From positions 35,502 through 99,501 of the IMG/VR virus record IMGVR_UViG_3300027917_002335: 64,000 nt of DNA; one strand, written 5' to 3'. The DNA is from a virus. Both the position numbers and the translations under genes were made by a program. Shown here piece after piece: positions 31,062-52,129 of the stretch (positions within the stretch are counted from its first letter, which is position 1; every line of letters begins with the position of its first letter). Under the pieces are notes generated by a model. It searched no databases. It was not told where the DNA came from and saw nothing but the letters and a program-made list of their open reading frames with translations.

Positions 31062-31220
31062 ATGTATGAAAGAAAAATGTGCCCTATGTGTGGAGCAGTG
31101 GGAAAAGATTTAAGAGAAGTAGAAGATAGAAGACCAAGTAGAAGAATGTATAGAATTTCTACTGGAACTTTTATGTATCCTAAAAAGAATTATTGTAAAA
31201 AATGCGGGTATGAATGGTAA
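31062..31220 (+). CDS. Zn-ribbon microprotein
   Basis: Hand translation ...CPMCG...LREVEDR...KKNYCKKCGYEW. Confidence 0.6.
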   Translation: MYERKMCPMCGAVGKDLREVEDRRPSRRMYRISTGTFMYPKKNYCKKCGYEW

Positions 31221-31663
31221 TGAGCTTACAAAGATTTATGGATGGAGTTTTTGAAGGAATTTGGGACACAAAAGATTTCAAAACAGATAAGTTTATTGCG
31301 TGGGATATAGGTTCGGAGATTGTAATTAATCGGAATTTTTTTCCCGATGATATAAGAATTTATACAGAATATAAAACAGTTCAAATGGTTTATTCTTATA
31401 AAACTGGCGTATGTATTGAATGGAACGGAAACTATTTCTTTGCTAATATGATAAAGAAATATATTGAAGAAGGATTTCAAAACAAACCTGTTGAAATAAG
31501 ATTTTTTAGGGCTGGTTTAGTTTATATGGAGTTTAAGATAGATGAAACTTACTCCTTTGTTGTTCAACAAATTATGGATTACGATGGTAAAGGAGATTTA
31601 AAACCAATACCATTTGACAAAGTATTTAAAAATGTAACAATTTCAAGTGATATGGAATTATGA
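31214..31663 (+). CDS. hypothetical protein with C-terminal DMEL tag; paralog of 51662-52129
   Basis: Ends ISSDMEL; shares GN.FF...I...E..F.N..VE...FK.DE.Y with 51662-52129. Confidence 0.75.
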   Translation: MVMSLQRFMDGVFEGIWDTKDFKTDKFIAWDIGSEIVINRNFFPDDIRIYTEYKTVQMVYSYKTGVCIEWNGNYFFANMIKKYIEEGFQNKPVEIRFFRAGLVYMEFKIDETYSFVVQQIMDYDGKGDLKPIPFDKVFKNVTISSDMEL

Positions 31664-32646
31664 AATATAAGTCAAGTGAAGATGTATGGATAGTAATGTT
31701 TGAAAATGTAGGATATTCTTGGCTTCCTCAATACATTATTAGTGTGTTTGCTGATAAGAAGAGAGCGGAAGAAGAAGTTGCTTATCTGAAAGACAATCCA
31801 AGATTTAAATTTGTCCTACTCGAAAAACAGAAAGTAAATGCTGAAAAAAAGGCGAAGAAAGAAAAATGAGCAAAATAGGAAGAATATTGAAATGGATTTT
31901 TGCAAGACCAAGATGCTTTTTATGTAGAAAGAGATTTCATAAAGGAGACCAAGTTGTAGAATTTTTTGGCGGATTTGCGCACTATACTTGTTTCGATAAA
32001 CAAATGCAAGAAAACGAAGAAAGAGGAAAATGATACTAGGCGAATTATTAAAAACCGAAGGATTTGACAACTTTGAAGAAAAAGAAATAATAAGGCATAT
32101 ACTTTGGGGAATTTTTGAATGGGAAGTACAAAAAAGAATTTATAGAATAAACCGTGAAGGAATTGTTGCCTTAGAAAAATCAATTAACTCGGTTTTTGAG
32201 AAATTCATTAAACCAAGATATAAAGTTAGAGCAACAATTCTTGATCATTCCGACGATGATGCCGCTTGGGGAGTTGCTATGATGGAAAGAAAAATAGATT
32301 TTAAGTTGATAAAAGAATGAGAAGACAACAATACAATCACAAACAATTAAGAAGGAAAAAGAAGCATAAGAAAAGGGATAATAAATATCAAATTCCTCAT
32401 TTGTATCCTTGTGCTAATCCAAAAGCTACTCGAAGATATTTGAGAGATCATAAATGTAAAGTATGTGGAAGATATTTTTATAAATGTGAGTGCGATGACA
32501 AAAATAAGAATAAATTATAATGTGGTTTGTAAAAACTGTGAATATTTTAATGGTTTTCACAATTATTGTGTTAAATATCATGTTCCTACTCGCGGCGATG
32601 ATTGGGGATGTAATAAACACAAAAAAAATAAAAGAGGTTATTTATC

Positions 32647-32898
32647 TTGAGTCCTTATATAAAACTAGAAGGAAGACCAGATATGGATGAAATTGTCGAT
32701 CTTATGGTTAAGAAAGGAGTAAAAGCCAATGGAGATTTAAACTATGTATTGTTTAAATTTGCCAAGTATCACATTACTCCGAGTTATAATAACTATAAGA
32801 ATTTCTGTGGCGAATTACAAGAATGCGCTGTTGAAATTAGACGACAAATTTTAGCGAAGTATGAAAATACAAAAATTAAAGAAAACGGCGATGTATAA
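32647..32898 (+). CDS. conserved small phage protein (PYIK...GDLNY...ENGDV type)
   Basis: Motif pattern recalled from phage hypothetical proteins; function unknown. Confidence 0.6.
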   Translation: MSPYIKLEGRPDMDEIVDLMVKKGVKANGDLNYVLFKFAKYHITPSYNNYKNFCGELQECAVEIRRQILAKYENTKIKENGDV

Positions 32899-33414
32899 TT
32901 AAAATGACACAAATTATAGCAATATTGTATTTATTAGGAGCATTGTTCCTCTGTGCAGGAGCAATACTTGGATTAATACAAGCTTTTAGAGGTTAAAAAA
33001 TGGTAGATTACAACAATCCTCCTCCAGTTTGCCATTTATGTGAGAAGTTTTATACTCCTCTCAAAAATGGTATAGATGTTTTCTTAATGACTGGAGTGGA
33101 TAACAACGAAATATATATATATTGGAGAGCAGATGTATATGAATGTCCAGAATGCCATGTTCAAATTATAACTCGATTTGGTGCTCCACAACATTATTTT
33201 GAAAATAAGGAGAAAATAAAGGCAATATATAAATCTGCCAAAATGAGAGGAACTATAGTTGAAGTAACATGAAATTAGAAAAAGAAGAATACGCTAGTTT
33301 AGGAGATGGTAAGTTAATGAAAACTCTTGCTATTCACCTTATACCAGAAGATGAAGAAGACGAAAGAATTATAAGAGAAATACATATTTCTAAACTTGGA
33401 GATATGATATATTT

Positions 33415-33801
33415 ATGAATGAACCAAGAATCTTATTAATTGGAAGATGGAGTCCATTTCATAATGGACATAAAGCCTTAGTCGATTCTTTCTTAAAAGT
33501 TGGAAAGAAAGTACTTATAGCAATAAGAGAAACGGAGGAGAAATATCCTGTGTCTCTTAGAATGATGATGATAAAACAAGTTTATCCTAGCGATGAAATT
33601 GTTCAAGTTATAAGTATTCCAGATATAGAGGGAGTTGCGATAGGCAGAGATGTTGGCTACTATTTTGTAGAAGTACCAGAAGATATAAAAACAATTTCGG
33701 GAACAAAAATCAGAGCAGGAAAGAGTATGGATGTTCCAGATGAAGTAAAAGAAATATTAGATTTTTGGGAATCTACCGGAGAAATGTTGGGATATTTCTA
33801 A
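33415..33801 (+). CDS. HxGH nucleotidyltransferase (cytidylyltransferase-like; possible minimal ATP sulfurylase)
   Basis: GRWSPFHNGH, GRDVGY and ISGTKIR. Confidence 0.8.
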   Translation: MNEPRILLIGRWSPFHNGHKALVDSFLKVGKKVLIAIRETEEKYPVSLRMMMIKQVYPSDEIVQVISIPDIEGVAIGRDVGYYFVEVPEDIKTISGTKIRAGKSMDVPDEVKEILDFWESTGEMLGYF

Positions 33802-33808
33802 AAATAAA

Positions 33809-33824
33809 CTATTTAAATCTTTTC
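33809..33824 (-). promoter_or_regulatory. BRE/TATA-like motif oriented antisense (GAAAAGATTTAAATAG)
   Basis: Same motif as 11928 and 19501, but no minus-strand ORF downstream. Confidence 0.35.
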
Positions 33825-33971: not shown

Positions 33972-35093
33972 TTGGGAGAAAAAATGATGATAGAGAACGC
34001 CCTTAAAAGTCCATTGAAAACGCATTCTGATTATAGTTACCAGCGATTTTGTAAAAATGTTAAAAAGTTAGTTTTCCAAAATAGATTTACCATAGATGAG
34101 ATTGCTAAAATGACAAAGCGTTCTGTTGAAGAATGTGTCGAAGCATTTGAAATCTACACTGGGAAAAAATTACCTGCTACATTTCTGATTGCTGGAAATG
34201 AAAGGCAAATAAATGAACTCAGAAAACTCATCCTCCAAAAACAAAAAATCCTTCTCTTCGGAAAAAACGGGGTAGGTAAATCAACTATACCGAAAAAATT
34301 GGCTCAAGAATTAGGTTGGAGAATTGTTTATTCATACCCCACAAATAATGAAGAGCTTTTAGTAGATTTCTCTGAACTTCCCCTCAAGACAAAGAACACA
34401 ATCTTTGTTATTGAGGGGGACTCCTTTTATTGGAGGAGTTATGGATTAATAAATCACTATATTAAAGAATCTAAAAATCCAATAATTATTATTGTAGATA
34501 AATCTGATAAGGTTCACGCTACAGTAAGAAAACAATTAGTAACAGTAAAATTATCTTCACCAACAAGAGAAGATGTAAAGAAATGGGTGGAAAGAAAATA
34601 CCCAGATTGGAAGGGAAATATTAATGATGTGTATGACGAGAATATGCGAGTCACACTCCGAAATATTAAGTATGGGATAAAAACCTATAAACCTTCTAAG
34701 GAAGAGAAGCTGGACGCCCAGCAAGTAGCATACCGTGTGATACAAGGAAAGGCAACAGTCCAGGACTTCGAAAATTGTATACATCCTTTTGATTGGATAC
34801 TTAGTTGGATAGGATATAATGCCTATACTTTTTATTACGGCACAGATGTTCAAGATTTAATGTCTTGGATTGATGACAAAAAATATAATTTTAAACCTGA
34901 TTATCTCAGAGGTTGTCTTCTTAATTTGAGAAAGCCTGATAAAAGAGGAAAGTTAAAATTTCCTCCACAAGGATTTAAACCTAAAAAGGAAGATGAGGAA
35001 GATTGGATTAAAGAAAAACGAAAAATTAAAAAAATTAAGAAGGAAGAACCTCAACCTAAAGTTTTTAAGTTTGCAGGAGATATGGAACTGTGA
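33972..35093 (+). CDS. rfcL: replication factor C large subunit-like clamp loader, C-terminal DMEL tag
   Basis: Walker A GKNGVGKS, LAQELGW, degenerate Walker B (FVIEGD), WI..N collar-like region, charged tail ending FAGDMEL. Confidence 0.7.
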   Translation: MGEKMMIENALKSPLKTHSDYSYQRFCKNVKKLVFQNRFTIDEIAKMTKRSVEECVEAFEIYTGKKLPATFLIAGNERQINELRKLILQKQKILLFGKNGVGKSTIPKKLAQELGWRIVYSYPTNNEELLVDFSELPLKTKNTIFVIEGDSFYWRSYGLINHYIKESKNPIIIIVDKSDKVHATVRKQLVTVKLSSPTREDVKKWVERKYPDWKGNINDVYDENMRVTLRNIKYGIKTYKPSKEEKLDAQQVAYRVIQGKATVQDFENCIHPFDWILSWIGYNAYTFYYGTDVQDLMSWIDDKKYNFKPDYLRGCLLNLRKPDKRGKLKFPPQGFKPKKEDEEDWIKEKRKIKKIKKEEPQPKVFKFAGDMEL

Positions 35094-36479: not shown

Positions 36480-37113
36480 ATTTGTAACTCCTCACGCCAT
36501 TAAATACAAGGCTCGTGAAAAGCTAATAATGGAGAGAACCAAAGCTGGTCATAGAGGACCTATTGGAGCTATTCGTCTAACTGCTGATAGAACTGTTGAG
36601 GCTTTTCTTGATTACTTTGATATGTTAGGCTCAGATGGTTGGATTTATTCTGGAATTTGTGAAGATCCAGATCTTCCCTATGGTGGGGTTCATGTATTCT
36701 ATAAATGGGTTGAAGACGATGGTTTTAAATCAACCATTGAAGAACCAGAAATTATAGATGAACAACCTCTTTCTGCTTCTGAAGTTTATGAAAGAGAAAG
36801 AGAGAGACAAGAACTTTTAAAACAAACAACCGATCCTAGACAAATATCGGATGCAAGATTAAATGCTGAGATGATGGCACGACAAGAACCAATTAAGGAT
36901 TTAGATGAAGATAGCGATATCTTAGAAGAATTAGATTATGCAGTTCATCACGAAGAAGTTATGGAAGACGAAGATCCAAAGAAAATTAGGTTTGAATTAT
37001 ACAAACAGTATGAAGAAATCAATCCTAATAAGAAAGCTGTTTTTAGAGGCAAAGAAACACAAGGATTTACAGAATGGTTGGAATCACAACAGGAAAAATG
37101 GGCTAAAAAATAA
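36460..37113 (+). CDS. hypothetical protein with C-terminal A(V/I)xRG..T..F.EW microdomain
   Basis: 217-aa ORF; motif shared with 43013-43285. Confidence 0.7.
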   Translation: MKRIVNRFVTPHAIKYKAREKLIMERTKAGHRGPIGAIRLTADRTVEAFLDYFDMLGSDGWIYSGICEDPDLPYGGVHVFYKWVEDDGFKSTIEEPEIIDEQPLSASEVYERERERQELLKQTTDPRQISDARLNAEMMARQEPIKDLDEDSDILEELDYAVHHEEVMEDEDPKKIRFELYKQYEEINPNKKAVFRGKETQGFTEWLESQQEKWAKK

Positions 37114-38090
37114 TGAACCTTGATGTGAAATACCGTCCGAGAACCTTTAAGGAATTTAAAGGCAACGAACGGATTATTAGGGATATAAAAGCCTTACTCA
37201 AAGTTGGAGATTTACCACACCTTATGTTTGTTGGACCTCCAGGAACTGGTAAAACAACACTAGCACTTCTTATTGCTCGAACAGTATTAGGAAGACCTAT
37301 TCATATTAATACTCGTGATGGCGATCCAGATTTTAAAGAGTTAAATGCTTCTAGTGCAAGAGGAATAGATGTTGTAAGAGAAGTAATAGAAGAATACGCT
37401 AGGGTTAAACCATTAGAAGGTACTCCTTATAGATTTATTTTATTAGATGAAATAGATTCTTCTACTCAGGAATTTCAACACGCCCTACGACCTGTTATTG
37501 AAAAGAATGAAGATAGATGTAAGTTTATTCTATGTTTAAACAGGATTCAAGGAATAAAAGAACCAGCTTTAATTTCTAGGTGTGCAACATTCTTTTTTGA
37601 AAAGCCTAATACTGATGTAACAGCTAGCTTGTTACTTGAAATAGCTGAGAAGGAAGGAGTTAAATTTGAGGATGAACAATTAGCTTATGATGTAGCAGAA
37701 TATTATGAAGGAGACTTGCGCCATATTCTCAACGATTGTTTAGAAACATTAAGAGGATATGATGAGGTAATAACTAAAGATCATTTATGGAAAGTCTATG
37801 AGAAAAATGGAAAATCAGTTGCTTCAAGAGTATATGAATCTGAAAATCCAAAGGAAGAATTCTTTACAATATATAGGAAAGAAGCCTTTGATGTTAGAGA
37901 GTTTTTGGAAGAATATTTCAAGCTCTTAGGAGATAAAGGGATTCCGCACTCGAAAGAGATTTCCAAGATAGACGCAAGAATTAGAAATTATTGTAATGTA
38001 CCAATACAAATGAGTTATTTTTTCTCGTTATTTGAAAACGAAGGTGAAAAAGAGGATGGAATTAAGACTAAGTTTAAAAAACCCTTCTGA
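37113..38090 (+). CDS. rfcS: replication factor C small subunit
   Basis: KYRP, GPPGTGKTT, ELNAS..RGIDVVR, LDEID, ALISRC and GDLR. Confidence 0.95.
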   Translation: MNLDVKYRPRTFKEFKGNERIIRDIKALLKVGDLPHLMFVGPPGTGKTTLALLIARTVLGRPIHINTRDGDPDFKELNASSARGIDVVREVIEEYARVKPLEGTPYRFILLDEIDSSTQEFQHALRPVIEKNEDRCKFILCLNRIQGIKEPALISRCATFFFEKPNTDVTASLLLEIAEKEGVKFEDEQLAYDVAEYYEGDLRHILNDCLETLRGYDEVITKDHLWKVYEKNGKSVASRVYESENPKEEFFTIYRKEAFDVREFLEEYFKLLGDKGIPHSKEISKIDARIRNYCNVPIQMSYFFSLFENEGEKEDGIKTKFKKPF

Positions 38091-38358
38091 ATTGGCATTG
38101 TTAAAAGAAGTCACCAAAGCATTAGGAAACTATACTCGATTAGCTATTTTAGATTTAATTGCTAAAGATACCACAGGCAATTTAAACTATGGAGAATTGG
38201 CAAACAAATTGAAGAGAAGTCCTACTGCTATTACAAATCATATGGGTTTGTTAAGGAGAAGCAAGTTGACAGAGGATATGATAGTAGAAGGGAAAAGAGG
38301 TAAAATGCAAAAACTTCCACAATTAAAATATGACAAAATAGTTATTGAGTTAAAATGA
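38056..38358 (+). CDS. ArsR-family winged-HTH regulator
   Basis: KALGN.TRL.IL, ELA..L..SPTAITNHM..L; probable start MELRL at 38056. Confidence 0.8.
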   Translation: MELRLSLKNPSELALLKEVTKALGNYTRLAILDLIAKDTTGNLNYGELANKLKRSPTAITNHMGLLRRSKLTEDMIVEGKRGKMQKLPQLKYDKIVIELK

Positions 38359-39197: not shown

Positions 39198-39198
39198 T

Positions 39199-42069: not shown

Positions 42070-43011
42070 ATGACAAGATTTAGAATTAAAGGTAAAGAAT
42101 TCCAAAAGTTTTTGGATGGAGTGTCTTGCAGAGGGGTACTCCAATTTAAAAGTAAGGGGAAAACAGAAGCACCCCTTTTCTCTGCTTTTTATATTGATGT
42201 AGATAAAGATAATCAAAAGCTAACTGTTTTAACAATTGATACATTCTTTCAACAAATAAAGCAAGACAGTTCAATTAAAGCAAAGGTTGATGAAGCTGGA
42301 GTGGTTGAAATAACTAACAAGATAACCTTTGACAAAATCTTTAAATCTATGGATGTTGAAAAAGAAATAGAAGTTTGGGATGACCAAGACGCTATTTATA
42401 TTCAAACTGTGGATGGTTCAGATTGGTATAAGAGAAGGTTAACTGGAGACAAGGCTTTAGACGATGTTTATAGCCAGAAAGATTTGCTTTTTAATTGGAG
42501 AGATTCTCATTCTTATGTAGATGTTGTAGCCGATGATGGCGAAACAATGAAAGTAGCAAAATTCACGACTCCAAAAGGTTCTGCTTTATATCCTATGAGA
42601 ATAAAGTTAGACAAAAAAGATTTACTTAAACTCGTATCTGATTCAATAAATCTCACAAAAGATAATGATACTGTTATTTTTAGTGAGGAAGGAAAATTAA
42701 TTATATCTACTGGAAGACCTAATGCCACTAGTATGGCTCGTCATAAAATTACATATGAGAATTTAGGAAAAGAAATATTACCTTTCTCAATTAAGTTCTC
42801 TGCCTTACAAGCAATCATTCCTAATTTGTTAGATGAAATTATTTTTAATTTCAGAAAGCAAAAGAATGAGACAATGGTTTTAAGAATAGAGAGTATGGAC
42901 AAGACTATGGTTCAAGTGTTTTCAATTGGAAGTCAAGACAAAGATGGAGTCTTGTATGATGTAGATATAATTGAAGAAGTAGAAAGTATAGAAGATATAG
43001 AGGAAGAGTAA
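42070..43011 (+). CDS. divergent sliding clamp (PCNA/beta-clamp-like)
   Basis: Two tandem halves with clamp-like patterns (FRIKGKEFQKFLDGV...LTVLTID...G.VEI...FDKIFK and IKLDKKDLLKLVSDS...KLIIS...SIKFSALQAII), acidic tail, between RFC and PolB genes. Confidence 0.6.
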   Translation: MTRFRIKGKEFQKFLDGVSCRGVLQFKSKGKTEAPLFSAFYIDVDKDNQKLTVLTIDTFFQQIKQDSSIKAKVDEAGVVEITNKITFDKIFKSMDVEKEIEVWDDQDAIYIQTVDGSDWYKRRLTGDKALDDVYSQKDLLFNWRDSHSYVDVVADDGETMKVAKFTTPKGSALYPMRIKLDKKDLLKLVSDSINLTKDNDTVIFSEEGKLIISTGRPNATSMARHKITYENLGKEILPFSIKFSALQAIIPNLLDEIIFNFRKQKNETMVLRIESMDKTMVQVFSIGSQDKDGVLYDVDIIEEVESIEDIEEE

Positions 43012-43012
43012 A

Positions 43013-43439: not shown

Positions 43440-44717
43440 ATGAACCTTAAGATAATGAATTATGGGTATTATAACAACAAGAGCGATGTTGAAAAATATA
43501 ATGCCCCAATTTTACTTTTATTTTGCAGAGATGAGAAGGGAAACTTTCATGTAGTTTATATTTGTGATAAGGAAAATTTAGCACCAGAAATGTATATACC
43601 AAAAAATGAAATACATATAGCCAAAGAGCTAGATAATATTATAACAATAACTGATGGACCACCATCAAATTATGGAGAGGAAACTCTTAGATTAACAACA
43701 ACATTTCCATGGGAAGTAAGAAGAAACAGGGATTTGTTTAGTCACACATTCTTGTCAGATATTAAATGGGAAAAAATGTGTATAGAGAAGATGGGAATTC
43801 GCACTCCTTACATCACAGTTTCGGACGATTTTAAAGATAGATGGTTGACTGTCAAAGACATCAAAGAATTAAATGAATACGATCATTTCTATGTCAAGAT
43901 TAGAACAGTTATATGGGATATAGAAACAAATGGAGAGCCAGTTTATCCTTTGTTTAATGGATATGATGATGCAGAAATATGCGATATAATAAGCATTACA
44001 GCATACGATAATTATACAGAGGAATATCATAGATTTATTTGGCATCCTCTTATTAAAGAAGACAGTCTTGAATTTGTTAAGAACTGGGAAAGAAGAGGAG
44101 AATATTATGTACCAGCTCTCAAAAAAAAGAAGAAATATTTCAATGTAAATAAAGTTTTTAATCATAATTTCACCAATGAAGTTGATATGTTGAAAAATTT
44201 TATAGACTGGATTGCTATGATAAGACCAGATGTTATGTTTGGTTTTAATAGTGAAGGAGGATATAAAATCTCAACTAAGAAAGGATATTCAAGAAAATAT
44301 TATCACGCTGGATTTGATATGCCTTATTTCTATAAAAGATGTAAGGCTCTCAAGATATTAGATTATATGGAAAAACTTAGCCCTCTTCCTAATACAATTA
44401 AAGGAGTTAAATGGAGAAGTCAAGGCAAGAAAGGAGGAGTGAGTATAGAAGGATTGTGTCAGATAGATTTCATATATACGAATGCCATCTTTATGTATGA
44501 TAAGAAATTTAATGAATTTAGAGAGGGCAACTTAGATGGATATATGAAATATTTTGTGGGATTTGGAAAGGTTCATCATAAAGAACATGTATGGGAACTT
44601 TGGAAGAATAACGAAACTTCTGATTATGATCCAACAAATCCAGAACAATATTTAATTAATAAAGAAAGAAATTTGGTGAAGGAATTATATACGAAAGCGA
44701 AGAAAATATTCGAGTGA
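43440..44717 (+). CDS. polB: family B DNA polymerase, N-terminal and 3'-5' exonuclease part (split gene, part 1)
   Basis: ExoI WDIET, ExoII GFNS...FDMPY, L......GFGK; ExoIII is absent. Confidence 0.88.
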   Translation: MNLKIMNYGYYNNKSDVEKYNAPILLLFCRDEKGNFHVVYICDKENLAPEMYIPKNEIHIAKELDNIITITDGPPSNYGEETLRLTTTFPWEVRRNRDLFSHTFLSDIKWEKMCIEKMGIRTPYITVSDDFKDRWLTVKDIKELNEYDHFYVKIRTVIWDIETNGEPVYPLFNGYDDAEICDIISITAYDNYTEEYHRFIWHPLIKEDSLEFVKNWERRGEYYVPALKKKKKYFNVNKVFNHNFTNEVDMLKNFIDWIAMIRPDVMFGFNSEGGYKISTKKGYSRKYYHAGFDMPYFYKRCKALKILDYMEKLSPLPNTIKGVKWRSQGKKGGVSIEGLCQIDFIYTNAIFMYDKKFNEFREGNLDGYMKYFVGFGKVHHKEHVWELWKNNETSDYDPTNPEQYLINKERNLVKELYTKAKKIFE

Positions 44718-45068: not shown

Positions 45069-45346
45069 TGATACTGTCAGATATATTAAAAGAAGGAGAA
45101 AAATCATACGAGATACCTCCTGCTTATAGAACTATTGAGATACGACATCGTAAACTTGCGTTGACTATTGTAAAATATGATGTAATAATAACATTTGAAC
45201 AATACAGTAGTTTAATGAAAGACATGAAAGATGGTAGAGCCGTTTGGGTTGATGGAAAAGAAGCAATGATAGTTTATACAAGAGGAGTAAGTATGATTGA
45301 AGATATGATAAAAATAGATGAGATTAGATATGACTGTTTGCGATAA
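45068..45346 (+). CDS. hypothetical protein within split polB
   Basis: 92-aa coupled ORF. Confidence 0.6.
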   Translation: MILSDILKEGEKSYEIPPAYRTIEIRHRKLALTIVKYDVIITFEQYSSLMKDMKDGRAVWVDGKEAMIVYTRGVSMIEDMIKIDEIRYDCLR

Positions 45347-46994
45347 GTTGCTCGACTATAATCTTGTAGATGTGGAAGGTCTTGTCTTATTAGACGATTT
45401 CTTTAAGATGATAGAAGACCAATTTGAACAAGCACATCTTGTGGTTGCTCCTCCAGACGATGGAATATATTCCAGCAAAATGCACGACCATGATATGATT
45501 AGAGATTATAGAGAGACAATGGTTTTTGATACAAAGTATCAGAAATGGGAGAGAAAACCAATAACAGGTAAGAAGCAGATTGGTTCTAAATTTACAATTA
45601 CATTGGAAGATTTAGTAGAAGTTAGGAAGAGGAGAGGAGATACTGAAGAAATTAAAAGTTTACATGATTTGCCAAAAATCGGGGGGTATGTGCCTGAACC
45701 ATTAAGAGCCGGGATGTTCGTATGGGTTATTACAATAGATTTTAACAAACAATATCCCAATGCGATAATGAGTTCAAACGCCGGAATAAAAACAGCAATT
45801 AATTTGTTAAAATATAACGATGAAGAAGTTTGGGATAAGGATGGAACGGTTTACCAACGAACGAATCTAATCGAAACGCCCATGGGCTTTTTCAGGAAAG
45901 ATATTGAATCAGTTAATAGAAAGAAATTTATGAAGTGGCTTGAGTTACGATTAAAAGCTCAAGAGATGGCTACAGCGTACTTAAAAGCTAAAAAAACTAT
46001 TGAAGATCCAATGTATAAGTTGTTAGATGGCAAACAATTTCGAATCAAAACTTTCACGAATGGAGGATTCGGAATCATGGGTTTACCAGCTGACAGGAAT
46101 TACTCAAAATTTATATTCAATAATTGTACTCTCATGTGTCAAGATTTGACTAAGAAGATGATGAATGTTTTAAAAGAACTTGACTATGTTGTTATTGGAG
46201 GAGATACAGATTCTTGTTTTGTTTGTTTAAAATGTAAAAATTTAGAAGAAGCAATAGAAGAGGGAAAAGAATTAGTAAATAAGATTAATAAGATAATAGA
46301 TAATTATCTTCGTAGAGTTTATAATATACAAGAACACACAATGAAAGTTGGATTAGAAACTATATCAGATAAATTCTGGGTTAAAGCAGCTAAAAATTAT
46401 GTTAAAAGAAATCTATGGAAGGATGGTCAAATTTTAGACAAGGCTGAATTAGAAATAAAAGGTATCTCTCAAAAGAAGAGAAACACATCTAAATTCTCTG
46501 CTGACTTACAATCTACTATGATAGATATATTGTTAGATTCTCCTAATGTAGAGGAAGATTTTAAATTATTGATGAAAGTTCTTGATTCAAGATTCGAAAC
46601 ATTACCTTGGACTTATATTGCACCTAAAGGAGCAATCAATAGTGAGATAGATGATTATGATTTAGGTAATAGAAATGCAAGAGGAGCTAGAAACACTCGT
46701 GATTATTTTAACAAATATTTTAATCCTGGCGACAATCCATATATAATGCCGTTCAGCCAGTTTCCTAAGAAGTTGAATGGAAAGTTTGTAACACCTTATA
46801 AAGGAGATACAATTGTGTTATCTTTTGATGAAGAAGATGTAGAAGAACTTAAAAATTTAGGATTCGTTCCAGATTATGAAGAATTAAAAAGAAGCCAGTT
46901 AAATGAGAAATCAAAACCGTTTCTCAGCTTAATGAATACTTCTTATTATCAAATGAGAGCATTAAATAAAGTGAGCAATGATATGGAATTATGA
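45318..46994 (+). CDS. polB: family B DNA polymerase catalytic part (split gene, part 2), C-terminal DMEL tag
   Basis: ExoIII YNLVD at the N-terminus, GGYV, motif A DFNKQYP, motif B K...NGGFG, motif C GDTDS, KNY and KG; ends VSNDMEL. Confidence 0.92.
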   Translation: MRLDMTVCDKLLDYNLVDVEGLVLLDDFFKMIEDQFEQAHLVVAPPDDGIYSSKMHDHDMIRDYRETMVFDTKYQKWERKPITGKKQIGSKFTITLEDLVEVRKRRGDTEEIKSLHDLPKIGGYVPEPLRAGMFVWVITIDFNKQYPNAIMSSNAGIKTAINLLKYNDEEVWDKDGTVYQRTNLIETPMGFFRKDIESVNRKKFMKWLELRLKAQEMATAYLKAKKTIEDPMYKLLDGKQFRIKTFTNGGFGIMGLPADRNYSKFIFNNCTLMCQDLTKKMMNVLKELDYVVIGGDTDSCFVCLKCKNLEEAIEEGKELVNKINKIIDNYLRRVYNIQEHTMKVGLETISDKFWVKAAKNYVKRNLWKDGQILDKAELEIKGISQKKRNTSKFSADLQSTMIDILLDSPNVEEDFKLLMKVLDSRFETLPWTYIAPKGAINSEIDDYDLGNRNARGARNTRDYFNKYFNPGDNPYIMPFSQFPKKLNGKFVTPYKGDTIVLSFDEEDVEELKNLGFVPDYEELKRSQLNEKSKPFLSLMNTSYYQMRALNKVSNDMEL

Positions 46995-47131
46995 TACCAG
47001 ATAATGTATGTATTTTATGTGGCAAAAGAGGATATTGTATAGATTTCAAGGAAGGTTCTTATGATATATATAGATGTCCTTATTGTAAAAGATTTTGGAC
47101 TATAATGGTAGATAAAAATGAAGATTCTTAA
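46991..47131 (+). CDS. Zn-finger microprotein
   Basis: Hand translation MIPDNVCILCG...YRCPYC; ATGA overlap with the polB stop. Confidence 0.6.
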   Translation: MIPDNVCILCGKRGYCIDFKEGSYDIYRCPYCKRFWTIMVDKNEDS

Positions 47132-47789
47132 TTTATTCGCAGGAATAGGAGGAAATCGTGCTCTATGGGGAGACGAGCACGAAGTTACAGCGGTAGAACA
47201 TGACGATAGAATTGCTCGAATTTACAAAAGAAGATACAAGAATGATAGAGTAATTATTGCGGATGCTTATGATTACTGTCTTTGGTTCTATGATGAATAT
47301 GATTTCATTTGGGCTTCCCCGCCTTGCCCTACTCACTCTATTACCAACAATTTTCTACATGCTCAAGGTGTAAGGAGATATCCAGATATGAAACTCTGGC
47401 AGTTAATTATCTTCTTAAAATACTATTCAACTTATAATAATAATAATATCAACTGGGTAGTAGAAAATGTTAAAACCTACTATGAACCTATTATAAAACC
47501 ATCATTCATACTGGGCAGGCATTACTTCTGGTCTAATGTCCATATACCTAGGAAGAAGTATGAATACTCTACAATTACAGTTACTAATGTGAAATCTGCT
47601 ACAAGAAGAGATAATTGGGAATACTTAGCAGAGTTAGAAAAATATTTAGGAATTAAATTAGCTGATGATGTAACTGGAGAGAGAAGAAGACAATTATTAA
47701 GAAACTGTGTTAAGCCAGAAATAGGAAAATATATATTAGATTATATTATAGAAGGACCTAGTGAGATAAGTAATGATATGGAGTTATAG
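47118..47789 (+). CDS. compact DNA cytosine-5 methyltransferase, C-terminal DMEL tag
   Basis: NLFAGIGG, SPPC, ENV, R..FWSN and RNCV; ends ISNDMEL. Confidence 0.9.
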   Translation: MKILNLFAGIGGNRALWGDEHEVTAVEHDDRIARIYKRRYKNDRVIIADAYDYCLWFYDEYDFIWASPPCPTHSITNNFLHAQGVRRYPDMKLWQLIIFLKYYSTYNNNNINWVVENVKTYYEPIIKPSFILGRHYFWSNVHIPRKKYEYSTITVTNVKSATRRDNWEYLAELEKYLGIKLADDVTGERRRQLLRNCVKPEIGKYILDYIIEGPSEISNDMEL

Positions 47790-48067
47790 AAGTAGGGAAA
47801 ATTTATTTAATAAGATAATGGTAAAGATAAGAAAAATTCTTTACTTTGTGTTGAAATTAGATATACATAAGAAATATGAAGCTGATAAAGATATTCAAGG
47901 ATTTATCCCGCTTCTTTCTTATAATCCAAAAACAAAATTTTATAGATTTAATTGTTATTGCAGAACTTGTCCTTGTAATTTTAAAGGATTATGTAGTACA
48001 CATTTCTATTCTATTCCGTATGTGTTATTACATGAATTTGATGGTGATAACATAATAAAAAATTTTT

Positions 48068-48625
48068 GTGGTTAATATGTATGATGAATGGAATAAAATA
48101 AAAGCAAAATGCCGTGACAGTGTAGTGGTAGATAAAGTGTTGTTCGAATCAAAATCTATTGAGTGGGGTACTCCTCAATGGTTATTTGACGAACTAAATG
48201 AAGAATTTGATTTTGTCTTAGATCCTTGTGCTAACGAAGAAAACCATAAATGTGAGAAATGGTATTCAAAAGAAGACAATGGTCTATCACAAGATTGGTC
48301 TATCTATAAAAGGGTTTTTATGAATCCTCCTTATGGAAGAGTAATAAAAGATTGGATGAAAAAGGCACACGAAGAATATTTGAAAGGAGCTACTGTTGTT
48401 TGTCTTGTTCCAGCAAGAACTGATACACAATGGTGGCACGACTATTGTATGAAAGCAACTGAGATTAGATTTATCAAAGGTAGGTTGACATTTGAAGGAG
48501 GAAAGCATTCTGCTCCTTTTCCATCAGCGATTGTCGTTTTTCAATTGAGAGATTATCCAAACTTTTTTGGAGAAGTAAGTAGATTTATTAAGAATAATGA
48601 AGTGAGATGCAGTAAATATGGGTAA
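48068..48625 (+). CDS. phage-type DNA N6-adenine methyltransferase
   Basis: W.TP, LDPCA, DNGL..DW, NPPY, LVPARTDT and GRL.F. Confidence 0.92.
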   Translation: MVNMYDEWNKIKAKCRDSVVVDKVLFESKSIEWGTPQWLFDELNEEFDFVLDPCANEENHKCEKWYSKEDNGLSQDWSIYKRVFMNPPYGRVIKDWMKKAHEEYLKGATVVCLVPARTDTQWWHDYCMKATEIRFIKGRLTFEGGKHSAPFPSAIVVFQLRDYPNFFGEVSRFIKNNEVRCSKYG

Positions 48626-49484
48626 TTGGATACAATCATTATTAGGATGGTATGGAGGAAAATATAATTTATTGGATTATATTTTACCTTTCCCAAGACA
48701 CACAACTTTTGTAGAAGTATTTGGAGGCAGTTCTGTTGTTTTGTTTAATAAGATACCCTCTGAAATAGAAGTTGTTAACGATATAAATTCACGATTAATT
48801 AATTTCTGGAAGACAATTCAAGAAGCACGAAGAGAATTTGTAGATTATTGTAAGAATGAAGGAGGAATAGATAGTCGTGCCTTATTCGATGAGTATAGAG
48901 AAAAGGCAGATAAGAAAGTAGAAGATGCTTTTAGATTATATTATGTAAATCATCACAGTTTTTCACAAATGAATAATGCTTATCATGGAATTTCATTTAC
49001 AGGAAGAGAACAATGGCATTCTCCTTATCTAAATAAATTGGAGCATATAGACGAATATTATAAGAGAATAAAACATGTGCAATTTGAATGTCAAGATTTC
49101 AGAAAATTATTAAAAAGATGTGATAGAGAAACGGCTTGTATTTATTTAGATCCTCCTTATTTTACAGGAGGAGAAGTTTATGAATATATGGCTGGAATAG
49201 AAACAGGCTGGAATCAACAAGATTTTGTAGATTTAAGAACACTATTGAAAGATATTAAGAAAGCTAAGTTCGTTCTTAGTATAGACGAGAAAGATTTTTG
49301 GTTAGAAGAAATGCCAGATTTATATGTGCAACCAATAGAGAGAGTTAATAATGCTTCTCTATCTATAGGTGAAGAGAAATCTAGGAGTATAGAATATGTG
49401 ATTAGAAATTATAATCCAAGAACTACTCCGACTATGAGAACTATGGCTGGTAAAAATAAAATAAAAAACGATATGGAATTATAA
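48618..49484 (+). CDS. Dam-like (D12 class) DNA adenine methyltransferase, C-terminal DMEL tag
   Basis: WYGGK, FVEVFGGS, VNDIN and YLDPPY; ends IKNDMEL. Confidence 0.92.
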   Translation: MGNWIQSLLGWYGGKYNLLDYILPFPRHTTFVEVFGGSSVVLFNKIPSEIEVVNDINSRLINFWKTIQEARREFVDYCKNEGGIDSRALFDEYREKADKKVEDAFRLYYVNHHSFSQMNNAYHGISFTGREQWHSPYLNKLEHIDEYYKRIKHVQFECQDFRKLLKRCDRETACIYLDPPYFTGGEVYEYMAGIETGWNQQDFVDLRTLLKDIKKAKFVLSIDEKDFWLEEMPDLYVQPIERVNNASLSIGEEKSRSIEYVIRNYNPRTTPTMRTMAGKNKIKNDMEL

Positions 49485-50468
49485 TGGGAGTTTATGATAC
49501 ACTACCAAATGGTAGTCAGGTTAAATGTTGGGGAAGTATGATGAGAATGCTTGATGTAGGCTCTAAAGTAGGAAAACTAGGAGATAAGAAAGACTATATT
49601 GTTTTACTACGAGAAGGCGGATATGTAAAAGTGATTAAGAAAAAGATTGTTAAAATTTCTAGTCATAGAGAAAAGAAATGTCCTTGTGATTTCAAACTAC
49701 CTGTGTTTGATAAATGGGGAGATAGAGTTTATTGTATGAACGATTTACATGGACTATTAGGTCCTTACGATATAGAGGATAAATATTATTATTGTGATAA
49801 TTAAATGCTAACCGCAGAAGAATATTTTAAACAAGAACGAGAAAAAGCAGAGATAAAAGCAAAAGAACGAGAAGAAAAATGGACAAAAGAAATCATGGAA
49901 GAAATAAAAGAATGGGATTCTGATAAGCTAGAAGATGAATACATCAAACTAAGATTGTCAAGAATCTCTTATTACGATCCTATTACGCCTGGAATGGCTT
50001 GGGATTTATTCCATGAAGAATGTAGATTTTGTGGCTTAGAATATATTCAAGGAGAACACAACGATTGTTGTGATGATTGTTGGGAAGAAAATAAAGATAA
50101 AACTTTAAGTGATTTAGAAAATGGCTGAAGAAATAAATAATATATTGGATGCATTAGTAGATGATTTTAGGTATGTATTAGATCTTGCTATCGAATGGAT
50201 GGATGATCCAAAATCATTCGAGCCAGATTATAGAAAACTAAATGAATTATTAGATATTTTTGATAAGTGGTTTAAATGAAATTGAACAACATATTAAAGG
50301 AATTGGCAACAGTCAAAGACTTGTTGCTACAAAAATATGGAGAAGTAGAAGAACTTCGAGAAATGAATGAAAATCTTAGACAATTAAACGCTAGATTATC
50401 TAAACAAGTAAAAGATTTAAAAGAGCATAGCGCTAAAGTAGAAAAAAATAACAAGATGTTGAAGGAGC

Positions 50469-51209
50469 ATGTACAAGGAAAATCCGAAGACAAAGGGTAG
50501 TGGAATATATGCTGTAATTCCGCAAACAGGTCATTGTCCTAACAATTGTGATGATTGTTTCTTCCAATCAGGTCGTTCTTTCTTAGAACCTTTGGATGAG
50601 AATTTACCCAATCTTTACGATTATAAATATCTTGAAGAAATGTATAGTAAAGTGTTTAGGATAAATGATGGAAACGATAGTAATGTTGACAGAGAAACTG
50701 TTATGGAAAAGACAGGCAAATATCTGTTGAAATTCTATAATACTGCTATCCCAAGAGACTTAGAAGAGTTTGATGCTCCATTTGTTTTGACTATAAATCC
50801 GGGGTTTATGACTGATAGAAGTTGGCATAAACTTATAGAGATTCCAAAGAATTTAATGTTTGTAAGAATAAGAACGAACTGTTGGAATTTAGAACAAGTT
50901 GTCAAACCAGCGGTGAAATACTATACTGAGAAAGAAGTACCAGTTGTATTAACATTCATGGCTTACTTTGATACTCCTATTCCAGAAGGATATGAAGATG
51001 ATTATATATTTAGAAAGAGAACTCTTAACTCTTACAATGCTATAACTACACAAGCATGGGAAGAGATTATGAGAATGTTTAAATATAATGCTTATGTATA
51101 TTCTTGTGGAAAGATTGAAGGAGAAAAAGGAACAACCAAATGTGCCAGATGTGGTAATTGTATAAGAGAATTTTTTGTTACAATGGAACGAATGAAAGAT
51201 GAGTTATAA
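50469..51209 (+). CDS. radical SAM-like protein
   Basis: CPNNCDDCF (CxxxCxxC) plus C-terminal CARCGNC. Confidence 0.7.
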   Translation: MYKENPKTKGSGIYAVIPQTGHCPNNCDDCFFQSGRSFLEPLDENLPNLYDYKYLEEMYSKVFRINDGNDSNVDRETVMEKTGKYLLKFYNTAIPRDLEEFDAPFVLTINPGFMTDRSWHKLIEIPKNLMFVRIRTNCWNLEQVVKPAVKYYTEKEVPVVLTFMAYFDTPIPEGYEDDYIFRKRTLNSYNAITTQAWEEIMRMFKYNAYVYSCGKIEGEKGTTKCARCGNCIREFFVTMERMKDEL

Positions 51210-51696
51210 TAGACGAATAGAAGAAGGATATAAAAAAATAGGAAAAAAATTAGATAAAGACGGCAATATTATGAAAAAAATTTATTTTGCTCATCCATTT
51301 GACAAATGGAATAGCAAACGAGAAGAAATGATAGAGCAAACATTATCAGAGAGAGGTTACGAAGTTATAAATCCTTTCAAAGAAGAGGATAGACTAAACG
51401 AAAAATATGGCGTTAATAATTACTACGAAGATCCAACCTATGAATTTGCCAGAGATATAGTTGACAAGGATTATCAGATGGTCAAAGATTGTGATGAATA
51501 TTTTGGTTGGTTTCCAAAAGATGTCACAATGATTGGTACTCCACTTGAACTGGCTTGGGCAAAAGATTTAGGTAAAAAGATTACAGTGCTTTGCTACAAA
51601 CCACAACCTTTCTTATGGATGTATGCTGATATATTTTATATAGGATACGACAATTTTAAAAATGATGTTAGATTCTACGATAAAGAAGTTCATTGA
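51199..51696 (+). CDS. nucleoside 2-deoxyribosyltransferase / dNMP N-glycosidase family
   Basis: KIYFAHPF, VINP, D...V..CD and GT..E..WA..LGK. Confidence 0.8.
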   Translation: MSYNRRIEEGYKKIGKKLDKDGNIMKKIYFAHPFDKWNSKREEMIEQTLSERGYEVINPFKEEDRLNEKYGVNNYYEDPTYEFARDIVDKDYQMVKDCDEYFGWFPKDVTMIGTPLELAWAKDLGKKITVLCYKPQPFLWMYADIFYIGYDNFKNDVRFYDKEVH

Positions 51697-52129
51697 ACTA
51701 TTTGGAGAATGTTTGGAAGACGATAAGAAAGACTTGCAAGAGTATGTTGTGCAAGCCTCCGCTTCTAGGATAGAGGGTATTATAGAGTTGAAAGGATTTT
51801 ATAAGACACATACTCCAAATGAAACATTTTATAGTTTTGCAGATTTACCAAGAATTATTGAGAAAAAGAATCAAGTTGTGGCTCTTGGTAATAAATTCTT
51901 TCCTTATGAAAGAGTTAGGCAAGTGTTAGAAAACTTCTTTGTTAATAATGTCGAAGTAGGTCTCTATCATGGAAAAGGAGCTTCTGCTCTTGTGTTTAAA
52001 CTTGATGAAGAATATGGAATTATGATGGCAAATAAAGTAGAGAAAGAAAAGAAAGATCCCAATGAAGTATTATATAGGTGGGATGATTTATTTTTCCACA
52101 AAAGTTTTGGAGATGATATGGAATTATGA
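51662..52129 (+). CDS. hypothetical protein with C-terminal DMEL tag; paralog of 31214-31663
   Basis: Ends FGDDMEL; shared central motif. Confidence 0.75.
   Translation: MMLDSTIKKFIELFGECLEDDKKDLQEYVVQASASRIEGIIELKGFYKTHTPNETFYSFADLPRIIEKKNQVVALGNKFFPYERVRQVLENFFVNNVEVGLYHGKGASALVFKLDEEYGIMMANKVEKEKKDPNEVLYRWDDLFFHKSFGDDMEL

What the first reader, a model, noticed from the sequence alone, without database searches (positions are those of the whole stretch)
31214..52129. Shared C-terminal [I/V/F]xxDMEL tag on six proteins: candidate virus-private clamp-docking code
Seen: six ORFs end in the same peptide: ISSDMEL (31214-31663), FAGDMEL (RFC-L), VSNDMEL (PolB catalytic part), ISNDMEL (C5 MTase), IKNDMEL (Dam-like MTase) and FGDDMEL (51662-52129). 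All also have a hydrophobic residue three positions before the D. Codons vary synonymously (GAA/GAG, TTA/CTG) and all three stop codons are used, which favours selection on the peptide over a DNA repeat. Established: archaeal PolB and RFC-L typically carry a C-terminal PCNA-interacting PIP box (Qxx[LIM]xxFF), and bacterial partners use QL[S/D]LF. No canonical PIP box is visible at these C-termini; DMEL occupies that place. Inference: DMEL is a docking peptide recognised by a viral hub, most likely the divergent clamp at 42070-43011, giving a replisome orthogonal to host PCNA. Weaker variants may be VTGDL (39199-40527) and IKEEELW (40830-41825).
Basis: partly seen in the sequence, partly recalled or inferred. 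Interest (0 to 1): 0.93.

Follow-up and report, generated by a model that had tools for sequence, protein, structure and literature searches.

The report
Clamp-docking tail shared by magrovirus proteins
Six proteins of an uncultured marine archaeal virus (DNA polymerase, clamp-loader subunit, two DNA methyltransferases, two small proteins) end in the same peptide, which is most likely a variant of the hook that replication enzymes use to hold the sliding clamp, here the virus's own very divergent clamp.

Summary
In a 99.5-kb magrovirus-like genome, six + strand ORFs end in [I/V/F]-x-x-D-M-E-L. About 0.02 such ends are expected, and DMEL never occurs elsewhere in any of the six frames. DNA similarity is confined to the 12-nt core and matches codon bias.

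Orthologues in six related viral contigs and in about 45 database homologues keep h-x-x-D-M-x-L at the extreme C-terminus, even where the protein bodies are only about 30% identical.

The clamp-docking reading is supported but unproven, on three lines:
- The 313-aa protein at 42070-43011 folds as a PCNA-type clamp.
- In all 11 RFC-L-like homologues the tag is fused to a PIP half-box, giving Q-x-x-h-x-x-F-x-x-D-M-x-L. The hydrophobic residue at -3 is therefore PIP position 7.
- A controlled complex prediction places exactly the last eight residues of the Dam methyltransferase on the clamp (ipSAE 0.63, best control 0.01).

This is a new variant of a known kind, comparable to the T4 gp45 tool-belt and PIP boxes. 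The scan has noted similar genome-specific tags in other magroviruses, with the partner unidentified there.

The parts
31214..31663 (+). 149-aa client of unknown function ending ISSDMEL (tag codons 31640-31660). Likely paralogue of the 155-aa client.
   Evidence: hhalign probability 84%, E 7e-6. The G001 orthologue is 34-38% identical and ends ITSDMVL.
33972..35093 (+). RFC-L-like AAA+ ATPase, 373 aa. A Lys-rich floppy linker is followed by Q-P-K-V-F-K-F-A-G-D-M-E-L (tag codons 35070-35090).
   Evidence: Searches give weak clamp-loader similarity. In some searches, all 11 homologues end Q-x-x-[LIV]-x-x-F-x-x-D-M-x-L, with Q356, D365, M366 and L368 invariant.
37113..38090 (+). RFC small subunit. 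It carries no tag.
   Evidence: AAA, RFC lid. E 1.7e-49 to archaeal RFC small subunit structures.
42070..43011 (+). Divergent PCNA-fold sliding clamp, 313 aa, with an acidic floppy C-terminus. It is the proposed reader of the tag.
   Evidence: No Pfam or PHROG hit. The model has pLDDT 81.8. Foldseek matches PCNAs with probability 1.00 and TM 0.70-0.75 at 9-12% identity. The predicted interface comprises residues 60, 62-64, 139-146, 165-172, 243-245, 264-270 and 285-290.
43440..44717 (+). PolB N-terminal/exonuclease part of the split polymerase. It carries no tag.
45318..46994 (+). PolB catalytic/thumb part ending VSNDMEL (tag codons 46971-46991).
   Evidence: Homologues at 54-69% identity all end [IV]-[SG]-x-D-M-x-L.
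47118..47789 (+). Compact C5 cytosine DNA methyltransferase-like protein, 223 aa, ending ISNDMEL (tag codons 47766-47786).
   Evidence: The only orthologue found, in G006, is 80% identical and ends VSDDMEL.
48618..49484 (+). D12-class N6-adenine (Dam-like) DNA methyltransferase ending IKNDMEL (tag codons 49461-49481).
   Evidence: PF02086, E 9.5e-27. Orthologues end DMIL, DMEL or DMKL. Its last 34 residues were the partner in the complex prediction.
51662..52129 (+). 155-aa client ending FGDDMEL (tag codons 52106-52126). The model shows a single clamp-like domain with a floppy tail.
   Evidence: 18 of 25 library representatives (clusters at 50% identity) end D-M-[IE]-L. The model has pLDDT 91.5. 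The top 36 VIA rows are all sliding clamps or processivity factors, Z 6.4-3.6.

Best explanation
The heptapeptide h-x-x-D-M-x-L-COOH (h = I, V or F) is a short linear docking motif. It is a lineage-specific variant of the PIP-box / T4-type clamp-binding tail. Several viral proteins use it to hold the virus's own PCNA-like clamp (42070-43011).

Shown:
- The tag is specific to C-termini, far beyond chance, and conserved as a peptide across relatives.
- The clamp has a PCNA fold.
- In RFC-L the tag continues a Q-x-x-h-x-x-F half-box.

Inferred:
- The tag lies in the front-face pocket between the two clamp domains and against the helical interdomain connector.
- The -3 hydrophobe packs on F60, I63 and F243.
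- The invariant Asp faces invariant K64.
- Met packs on invariant W143.
- The terminal Leu packs on F165.
- The variable x residue faces the loop at 264-268.

Proposed consequences, also inferred:
- RFC-L uses the tag to load the clamp.
- PolB uses it for processivity.
- The Dam-like and C5 methyltransferases ride the clamp and methylate DNA as it is made.
- The two paralogous clamp-like small proteins are clamp accessories or competitors.

The tag is portable. Lineage-specific genes carry it too, namely the C5 MTase and a weak radical-SAM-like protein in relative G006.
For: 1. Specificity. Six of 153 ORFs end in D-M-x-L against 0.022 expected, while internal occurrences are at expectation. 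No DNA similarity exists outside the 12-nt core.

2. Conservation as a peptide.
- G001 has DMIL x3 and DMVL x2. G002 has DMIL x3. G003 has DMQL, DMEL and DMIL. G006 has DMEL x5. L035 has DMML and DMKL.
- The 155-aa family keeps the tail at 29-37% body identity.
- 18 of 25 library representatives (clusters at 50% identity) of that family also keep the tail.

3. Position. The tag is the extreme C-terminus of PolB and of RFC-L, where clamp hooks sit. Halovirus PolBs end in Q-x-x-h-x-x-aromatic. T4 gp43, gp33 and gp55 share interchangeable C-terminal clamp epitopes (PMC2988020; PMC6212786).

4. PIP context. All 11 RFC-L homologues read Q-x-x-[LIV]-x-x-F-x-x-D-M-x-L after a Lys-rich linker.

5. The 313-aa protein is PCNA-fold.

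6. Complex prediction, clamp 1-296 with Dam tail 255-288.
- ipSAE was 0.63 (runs 0.56, 0.70, 0.63), against a best control of 0.01.
- This mark was reached by 58 of 80 solved complexes and 2 of 110 mismatched pairs.
- The runs share at least 43% of contacts, and partner pLDDT is at least 43.
- The confident interface is exactly partner residues 281-288, K-I-K-N-D-M-E-L.
- PCNA-peptide complexes are solved, so part of the pass may reflect likeness to known structures.

7. Suggestive co-variation. Clamps with K265 go with x = E tails (G000, P0002 with P0037, P0007 with P0027). Clamps with G or S at 265 go with I, V, M, K or Q. Residues 264-268 are the predicted contacts of x.

8. The tail is floppy in the 155-aa model, with pLDDT 55 in the last block.
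Against: - No binding has been measured. The complex score is a model's confidence, and the partner's own pLDDT is low (43).
- Only one of the six tails was modelled, and only against a clamp monomer.
- The predicted interface is not more conserved than the rest of the clamp, 0.72 against 0.70.
- Five of the six tails lack the Q and the position-4 aliphatic residue of a PIP box. Position 8 is never aromatic.
- The co-variation rests on about eight viruses that are not phylogenetically independent. G003 carries mixed x residues.
- The RFC-L assignment is weak (hhalign 60% to RFC-S).
- No other candidate reader was tested.
Confidence: 0.74

Rival explanations
1. The tag is a docking peptide, but it is not private. 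It binds host (Poseidoniales) PCNA as well as, or instead of, the viral clamp, so the replisome is not orthogonal.
For: - The RFC-L version contains a near-canonical Q-x-x-h-x-x-F half-box.
- The tool warns that close relatives of a true partner can also pass the complex test.
- Another conserved C-terminus in the module, G-I-[KR]-[KR]-[YW]-[FY] on the 280-aa protein, looks like a canonical h-x-x-aromatic-aromatic end. More than one clamp code may therefore be in use.
Against: - The virus encodes its own clamp and loader next to the clients.
- Five of six tails lack Q and aromatic residues.
- The viral clamp is about 10% identical to cellular PCNAs and has a helical connector where the tag is predicted to sit.
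- No host PCNA was examined here.
Confidence: 0.25
2. The tag is read by a hub other than a clamp. Candidates are the RadA-like ATPase (40830-41825), the 442-aa protein, an SSB or helicase, or a chaperonin.
For: - Several other proteins in the module have their own conserved C-terminal peptides (G-D-L, E-E-[DE]-L-W), which suggests a wider network of tail-mediated contacts.
- Earlier follow-ups on other magroviruses left the partner open.
Against: - PolB and RFC-L tails are the classical clamp hooks.
- The tag is fused to a PIP half-box in RFC-L.
- The clamp model accepts exactly the tag residues, while the controls score 0.00-0.01.
- No alternative hub was tested, so this is not excluded.
Confidence: 0.1
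3. The tail is a C-terminal stability or degradation signal of the hydrophobic-x-hydrophobic-COOH type, as read by PDZ-type proteases or unfoldases. It would set the lifetime of early proteins.
For: M-x-L-COOH fits the general hydrophobic-x-hydrophobic C-terminal pattern that such readers recognise (general knowledge, not tested). All clients lie in the replication (+ strand) arm.
Against: - No PDZ or protease partner was seen in the annotated part of the module.
- It is hard to see why polymerase and clamp loader would share a degron that continues a PIP half-box.
- Asp and the -3 hydrophobe are invariant, which suggests a more specific pocket.
Confidence: 0.04
4. The repeat acts at the nucleic-acid level. 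GATATGGAATTA plus a stop codon would serve as a translational-coupling, termination or protein-binding site at gene ends.
For: - The 12-nt core is 92% identical among the six sites.
- In four of six cases the next ORF's start overlaps the stop codon.
- Asp is GAT in every tail seen.
Against: - The core uses the preferred codons of the genome.
- The motif never occurs in another frame, on the other strand or between genes.
- The flanks are unrelated.
- Two sites have no overlapping downstream start.
- Relatives change the third codon non-synonymously (ATA, GTG, GTT, CAA, ATG, AAA) yet keep D, M and L.
- Distant homologues keep a similar peptide with different codons.
Confidence: 0.02

Closest known systems
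Phage T4/RB69 gp45 clamp 'tool-belt': C-terminal clamp-binding epitopes of gp43, gp33 and gp55, and the LDFLF loop of T4 ligase (PMC2988020, PMC6212786)
   Same: - A short hydrophobic-acidic peptide at the extreme C-terminus is shared by the polymerase and by non-polymerase proteins of one virus, and joined to the body by a variable floppy linker.
- The core pattern is alike: Asp, hydrophobic, x, hydrophobic (T4 ..L-D-F-L-F-G; here ..D-M-x-L; distant magrovirus PolB ..G-D-F-L-L-I).
- Magrovirus PolBs are placed near the T4-like/B5 PolB groups (PMC7544198).
   Different: - The consensus differs and there are no aromatic residues in the core.
- The clients here are DNA methyltransferases, a clamp-loader subunit and clamp-like small proteins, not transcription factors.
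- The clamp is a 313-aa PCNA-fold protein of an archaeal virus.
- Binding and interchangeability are demonstrated for T4 and only predicted here.
Canonical PIP box Q-x-x-[LIVM]-x-x-[FY]-[FY] of archaeal and eukaryotic PCNA clients (PolB, RFC-L, Fen1; DNMT1 as a methyltransferase client)
   Same: - The location is the C-terminal end of PolB and RFC-L.
- RFC-L keeps Q1, the aliphatic residue at position 4 and F7.
- The predicted site is the front face between the two clamp domains, against the connector and the C-terminal strand.
- The idea of a DNA methyltransferase tethered to the clamp has a eukaryotic precedent in DNMT1-PCNA (general knowledge).
   Different: - Position 8 is never aromatic.
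- Five of six clients lack Q and the position-4 residue.
- An obligatory D-M-x-L-COOH extension carries the invariant residues.
- Related haloviruses still end their PolB in Q-x-x-h-x-x-aromatic, so the magrovirus clade has changed the code.
Genome-specific shared peptide tags noted by this scan in other magroviruses and archaeal or T4-like viruses (e1-5985014, e1-5956597, e1-6036879, e1-5741110; AI notes, unchecked)
   Same: One short peptide sits on several unrelated proteins of the replication arm. It is uniform within a genome and varies between genomes. DNA-modifying enzymes are among the carriers.
   Different: The peptides differ (M-F/Y-D-L-T-L, S-I-M-D-L, x-L-F, K-F-F). For the two magrovirus cases the partner was left unidentified. 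Here the RFC-L PIP fusion and a controlled complex prediction point to the viral clamp.

Membership tests
Canonical PIP box (Q-x-x-[LIVM]-x-x-[FY]-[FY]) | Gln at position 1 and an aliphatic residue at position 4 | tested here: not met
   Met only in RFC-L, where Q356 is invariant and position 359 is [LIV] in 11 homologues. It is absent from the other five tails and their orthologues.
Canonical PIP box (Q-x-x-[LIVM]-x-x-[FY]-[FY]) | Two consecutive aromatic residues at positions 7 and 8 | tested here: not met
   Position 7 is F in RFC-L and the 155-aa protein and I or V in the others. Position 8 is S, G, A, K or T and never aromatic.
Canonical PIP box (Q-x-x-[LIVM]-x-x-[FY]-[FY]) | Binds the hydrophobic pocket under the interdomain connector on the front face of a PCNA-type clamp | tested here: inconclusive
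   The complex prediction places residues 281-288 against clamp residues 60-64, 139-146, 243-245, 264-270 and 285-290. ipSAE is 0.63 against a best control of 0.01. That mark was reached by 58 of 80 solved complexes and 2 of 110 mismatched pairs. It is a model, not a measurement. Equivalence to the PIP pocket is judged from topology only.
T4-type C-terminal clamp-binding epitope | Short hydrophobic/acidic peptide at the extreme C-terminus, shared by the polymerase and other proteins of the same virus | tested here: met
   Six proteins in G000 and three to five in each relative, always as the last residues. The T4 features are taken from PMC2988020 and PMC6212786.
T4-type C-terminal clamp-binding epitope | Variable, dispensable linker between the epitope and the folded body | tested here: met
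   The RFC-L linker is Lys-rich and varies in sequence and length. The last block of the 155-aa model has pLDDT 55. Only residues 281-288 of the 34-residue Dam piece are placed with confidence.
T4-type C-terminal clamp-binding epitope | Measured binding to the cognate clamp, and interchangeability of epitopes between clients | not testable with these tools
   This needs peptide binding assays and tail-swap experiments.
PCNA-type sliding clamp (protein at 42070-43011) | Two tandem clamp domains joined by a connector | tested here: met
   The model has pLDDT 81.8 and pTM 0.82. Foldseek gives probability 1.00 and TM (target) 0.70-0.75 to PCNAs of Leishmania, human, yeast and Thermococcus.
PCNA-type sliding clamp (protein at 42070-43011) | Sequence membership in the Pfam PCNA_N / PCNA_C families | tested here: not met
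   No Pfam or PHROG family at E <= 0.01. Identity to solved PCNAs is 9-12%.
PCNA-type sliding clamp (protein at 42070-43011) | Closed homotrimeric ring that is loaded on DNA by RFC | not tested
   Only the monomer was modelled. The RFC small subunit lies nearby.
Bacterial beta-clamp binding motif (Q-L-[SD]-L-F / Q-L-x-L-x-L) | Gln-Leu start followed by alternating Leu/Phe | tested here: not met
   None of the six tails fits. The clamp has two domains of PCNA type, not three.

The most novel reading that the evidence does not exclude
The clamp and its tag form a private, co-evolving address code.
- Each magrovirus lineage retunes the tag (D-M-E-L, D-M-I/V-L, G-D-F/L-L-x-I, G-D-M-M-x-x) together with the clamp pocket; for example, x = E goes with Lys265.
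- This would insulate the viral replisome and its DNA-modifying enzymes from host PCNA.
- Newly captured genes (C5 MTase, a radical-SAM-like enzyme) would be plugged into the fork simply by acquiring the seven-residue tail.
- The two tag-bearing, single-clamp-domain proteins would be a new kind of clamp regulator.
Probability: 0.3. Interest if true: 0.78.

Novelty: new variant of a known kind. Interest (0 to 1): 0.6.

Why it matters
Magroviruses are abundant, uncultured viruses of marine group II archaea, and the way their self-encoded replisome is assembled is unknown.

- A defined seven-residue tag, together with an identified candidate reader, gives a directly testable wiring diagram of that replisome.
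- The tag predicts that two DNA methyltransferases act at the fork. That would be co-replicative protection against host restriction.
- It flags two uncharacterised small proteins, and in a relative a radical-SAM-like protein, as fork-associated.
- If the tag and pocket co-vary between lineages, the system would be a natural example of orthogonal clamp-client codes. Such codes are useful for understanding how short linear motifs and their hubs co-evolve, and as orthogonal tethering parts.

Tried and rejected
Clamp-tail pairs for P0002/P0037, P0007/P0027 and P0018/P0039 rest on matching contig lengths in the hit tables, not on sequence.
- The 'phages' collection holds no close relative; the best PolB hits were haloviruses at about 23% identity.
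- Pfam, PHROGs, profile searches of PDB sequences and the ESM Atlas gave nothing usable for the 149-, 155-, 331- and 442-aa proteins.
- Foldseek gave nothing for the 155-aa model. The clamp-like reading rests on VIA Z 3.6-6.4 only, which is below the level that proves kinship.
- Attempts to fetch a genome of the more distant tag types (G-D-F-L-L-I, G-D-M-M-x-x) failed or returned only a 3.5-kb contig. It is therefore not shown on one contig that PolB and the small protein switch tag type together.
- The predicted clamp interface is not more conserved than the rest of the protein, so conservation does not single out the pocket.
- The profile of the RFC-L-like protein hit only a generic AAA+ protein (midasin) among PDB sequences.
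- Candidate weak variants in G000 have no conserved counterparts and were dropped..M-K-D-E-L at 50469-51209 and ..S-F-G-E-E-L at 29225-29380.
- The DNA-element reading was rejected.

Full report
**What the sequence is.** The window is bases 35502-99501 of a 99,501-bp viral record that CheckV rates complete. Its features:
- GC content is about 31%.
- A structural arm lies on the minus strand and a replication arm on the plus strand.
- It encodes a TFB-like transcription factor, a T4-type large terminase and an RFC small subunit.
- It also encodes a split family B polymerase and several DNA methyltransferases.

This matches published descriptions of magroviruses / Aoguangviridae. Those are 90-100 kb genomes of about 31.5% GC with TFB, RFC-S, PCNA and PolB split into N- and C-terminal parts, and group B1 has a split polymerase (PMC10768690; PMC5434244). 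I found no mention of a shared C-terminal or PIP-like motif in the magrovirus papers I could search.

**The observation.** All six ORFs exist and end as described.
- The tetrapeptide DMEL occurs nowhere else in six-frame translation, and the DNA pattern occurs only at these six places in the whole genome.
- With the genome's amino-acid frequencies, 0.022 of 153 ORFs should end in D-M-x-L and six do (Poisson 1.7e-13). Internal D-M-x-L is at expectation, 4 against 4.6.
- All six carry I, V or F three residues before the Asp.
- Nucleotide identity among the six sites is 0.92 in the 12-nt core but 0.34-0.42 in the 30 nt on either side and in the three preceding codons.
- The core codons are simply the preferred ones: GAT 0.80, GAA 0.82, TTA 0.54.

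**Relatives.** I collected one complete relative, G001 (99,014 bp), and partial relatives G002-G006 and L035.
- PolB C-terminal part: DMEL, DMIL, DMIL, DMQL, DMML.
- Dam-like MTase: DMEL, DMIL, DMIL, DMEL, DMKL.
- 155-aa protein: DMEL and DMIL x3, although the bodies are only 29-37% identical.
- RFC-L-like protein: DMEL, DMVL.
- 149-aa protein: DMEL, DMVL.

The closest relative, G006, has five DMEL tails in 12 kb:
- Four are on the PolB C-terminal part, the Dam-like MTase, the orthologue of the compact C5 MTase and the 160-aa orthologue of the 155-aa client.
- The fifth is on a 303-aa protein with a sub-threshold radical-SAM hit.
- That 303-aa protein has no counterpart in G000-G005.

Database searches widen the picture:
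- Nine PolB homologues at 54-100% identity end [IV]-[SG]-x-D-M-x-L with x = E, I, V, D, Q or M.
- Eleven RFC-L homologues all keep the tail.
- Eighteen of 25 library representatives (clusters at 50% identity) of the 155-aa family end D-M-[IE]-L.

The family motif is therefore h-x-x-D-M-x-L-COOH. D, M, L and the -3 hydrophobe are fixed, and x is free between genomes but tends to be uniform within a genome.

More distant homologues carry different but similar ends. PolB ends ..G-D-F-L-L-I or ..[MI]-G-D-M-M-x-x. The small protein ends ..G-D-[FLS]-L-x-I. This suggests lineage-specific versions of one tag, but I could not obtain a contig that shows both clients together.

**Why a clamp hook.**
1. 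The tag is the extreme C-terminus of the polymerase thumb part and of the RFC-L-like ATPase, the classical positions of clamp hooks. Related halovirus PolBs end in Q-G-G-V-L-S-W and Q-T-G-L-G-A-F-V, which are ordinary PIP-like ends.
2. In every RFC-L homologue a Lys-rich variable linker leads into Q-x-x-[LIV]-x-x-F-x-x-D-M-x-L. Q356, D365, M366 and L368 are invariant and F362 nearly so. The hydrophobe at -3 is therefore PIP position 7, and D-M-x-L extends a half-degenerate PIP box.
3. The 313-aa protein at 42070-43011 has no family hit. With 18 homologues it models at pLDDT 81.8, and it matches PCNAs with Foldseek probability 1.00 and TM 0.70-0.75 at 9-12% identity. Its interdomain connector is modelled as two helices (128-135, 137-145) and its last 24 residues as an acidic floppy tail.
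4. I ran a controlled complex prediction of the clamp (1-296) with the last 34 residues of the Dam-like MTase.
   - ipSAE was 0.63 (runs 0.56, 0.70, 0.63), against 0.01 for the best of three controls.
   - That mark was reached by 58 of 80 solved complexes and 2 of 110 mismatched pairs.
   - The runs share at least 43% of contacts, and partner pLDDT is at least 43.
   - The confident interface on the partner is exactly residues 281-288, K-I-K-N-D-M-E-L.
   - On the clamp the interface is residues 60, 62-64, 139, 142-143, 146, 165-172, 243-245, 264-270 and 285-290. It includes invariant F60, K64, W143, S288 and D290.
   - The lowest-error pairs put Asp285 next to K64, Met286 on W143 and L139, Leu288 on F165, Ile282 on F60, I63 and F243, and the variable Glu287 on 264-268.

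Because many PCNA-peptide complexes are solved, part of this pass may reflect likeness to known structures. It supports binding and does not show it.

**A hint of co-variation.**
- Clamps of the DMEL viruses read Q-K-N at 264-266 (G000, P0002).
- The clamp that shares a contig length with a DMEL-ending PolB reads T-K-S (P0007/P0027).
- Clamps of viruses with I, V, M, K or Q at x read T-G/S-x.
- Position 265 is among the predicted contacts of x.

The sample is about eight viruses, they are not independent, and G003 has mixed x residues. This is a lead only.

**The clients.**
- PolB C-terminal part.
- RFC-L-like ATPase. The assignment is tentative: PHROG clamp-loader hits at E 2e-4 and hhalign 60% to the bona fide RFC-S.
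- A D12 Dam-like MTase.
- A compact 223-aa C5 MTase-like protein with motifs I, IV and VI.
- Two small proteins that are probably paralogues.

With 24 sequences the 155-aa protein models at pLDDT 91.5 with a floppy tail. Foldseek finds nothing. In the exhaustive structural search the top 36 rows are all sliding clamps or herpesvirus-type processivity factors, at Z 6.4-3.6 over about 105-120 residues. It therefore looks like a single clamp-type domain. At these Z values that is a resemblance, not proof of kinship.

Proteins of the module without the tag:
- RFC-S.
- The PolB exonuclease part.
- The PF05869 Dam.
- A PD-(D/E)XK nuclease.
- An ERCC4 nuclease.
- An XPD-like helicase.
- A RadA-like P-loop protein.

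**Rivals.**
- A DNA-level element is nearly excluded.
- A degron or PDZ-type signal is possible in principle but does not explain the PIP context.
- Another hub, or host PCNA as an additional reader, is not excluded, because only one complex job was available and no host sequence was examined.

**Comparison and novelty.** Functionally the closest system is the T4/RB69 gp45 tool-belt. There the polymerase, gp33, gp55 and (through an internal loop) the ligase share a clamp epitope, and the C-terminal epitopes of the polymerase, gp33 and gp55 are interchangeable (PMC2988020, PMC6212786). Its core, Asp-hydrophobic-x-hydrophobic, resembles the one here. The tag fails the canonical PIP definition in five of six clients. 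I rate it a new variant of a known kind.

The scan had already noted genome-specific shared tags in other magroviruses with the partner unknown (AI notes, not checked by me). What this window adds is the link to the viral clamp and the client list.

Noticed in passing
window 39199-40527 (+): A 442-aa protein with no family hit is highly conserved (mean column identity 77%). Its C-terminus ..[LVI]-x-G-D-L is kept in all relatives, including a distant one (L037: ..K-L-F-G-D-L). This may be a truncated form of the tag or a separate docking peptide.
   Followed up: partly
window 40830-41825 (+): A 331-aa protein has a P-loop (G-x4-G-K-S) and a Walker-B-like D-S-L-S, so it is probably the RadA-like ATPase described for magroviruses. 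Its C-terminus E-E-[DE]-[LY]-W is conserved in all seven relatives seen. This acidic-aromatic tail is reminiscent of SSB or helicase tails.
   Followed up: partly
window 38355-39197 (+): A 280-aa protein with no family hit lies after RFC-S. It ends ..G-I-[KR]-[KR]-[YW]-[FY] in several relatives, a canonical-looking h-x-x-aromatic-aromatic (PIP positions 4-8) end. It could be a second clamp code, possibly for host PCNA.
   Followed up: no
L042 4836-5747 (relative G006): A 303-aa protein ending K-F-V-N-D-M-E-L has a sub-threshold radical-SAM hit (E 4e-4, 21 bits against a cut-off of 29.5). It sits among the methyltransferase genes and has no orthologue in G000-G005. It may be a clamp-tethered DNA-modifying enzyme.
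   Followed up: partly
L042 1327-3954 and protein P0027: The PolB C-terminal part is 875-880 aa in two relatives, and the P0027 record carries intein/LAGLIDADG Pfam domains. The window's copy (558 aa) has no insert.
   Followed up: no
window 47773-48075 (+) and L035 5921-6226: A 100-aa ORF ending ..D-G-D-N-I-I-K-N-[FY]-C-G lies after the C5 MTase here but between the two PolB halves in L035. It is a small gene that moves within the module.
   Followed up: no
window 42070-43011, residues 124-146 of the protein: The clamp's interdomain connector is modelled as two helices carrying invariant W143 and H147, instead of the extended loop of cellular PCNA. The tag is predicted to pack against it.
   Followed up: partly
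window 51199-56151 (+): Genes for a nucleoside 2-deoxyribosyltransferase-like protein, a sulfotransferase and an APS kinase lie close to the clients. Two glycosyltransferases follow at 59369-61695. None carries the tag.
   Followed up: no
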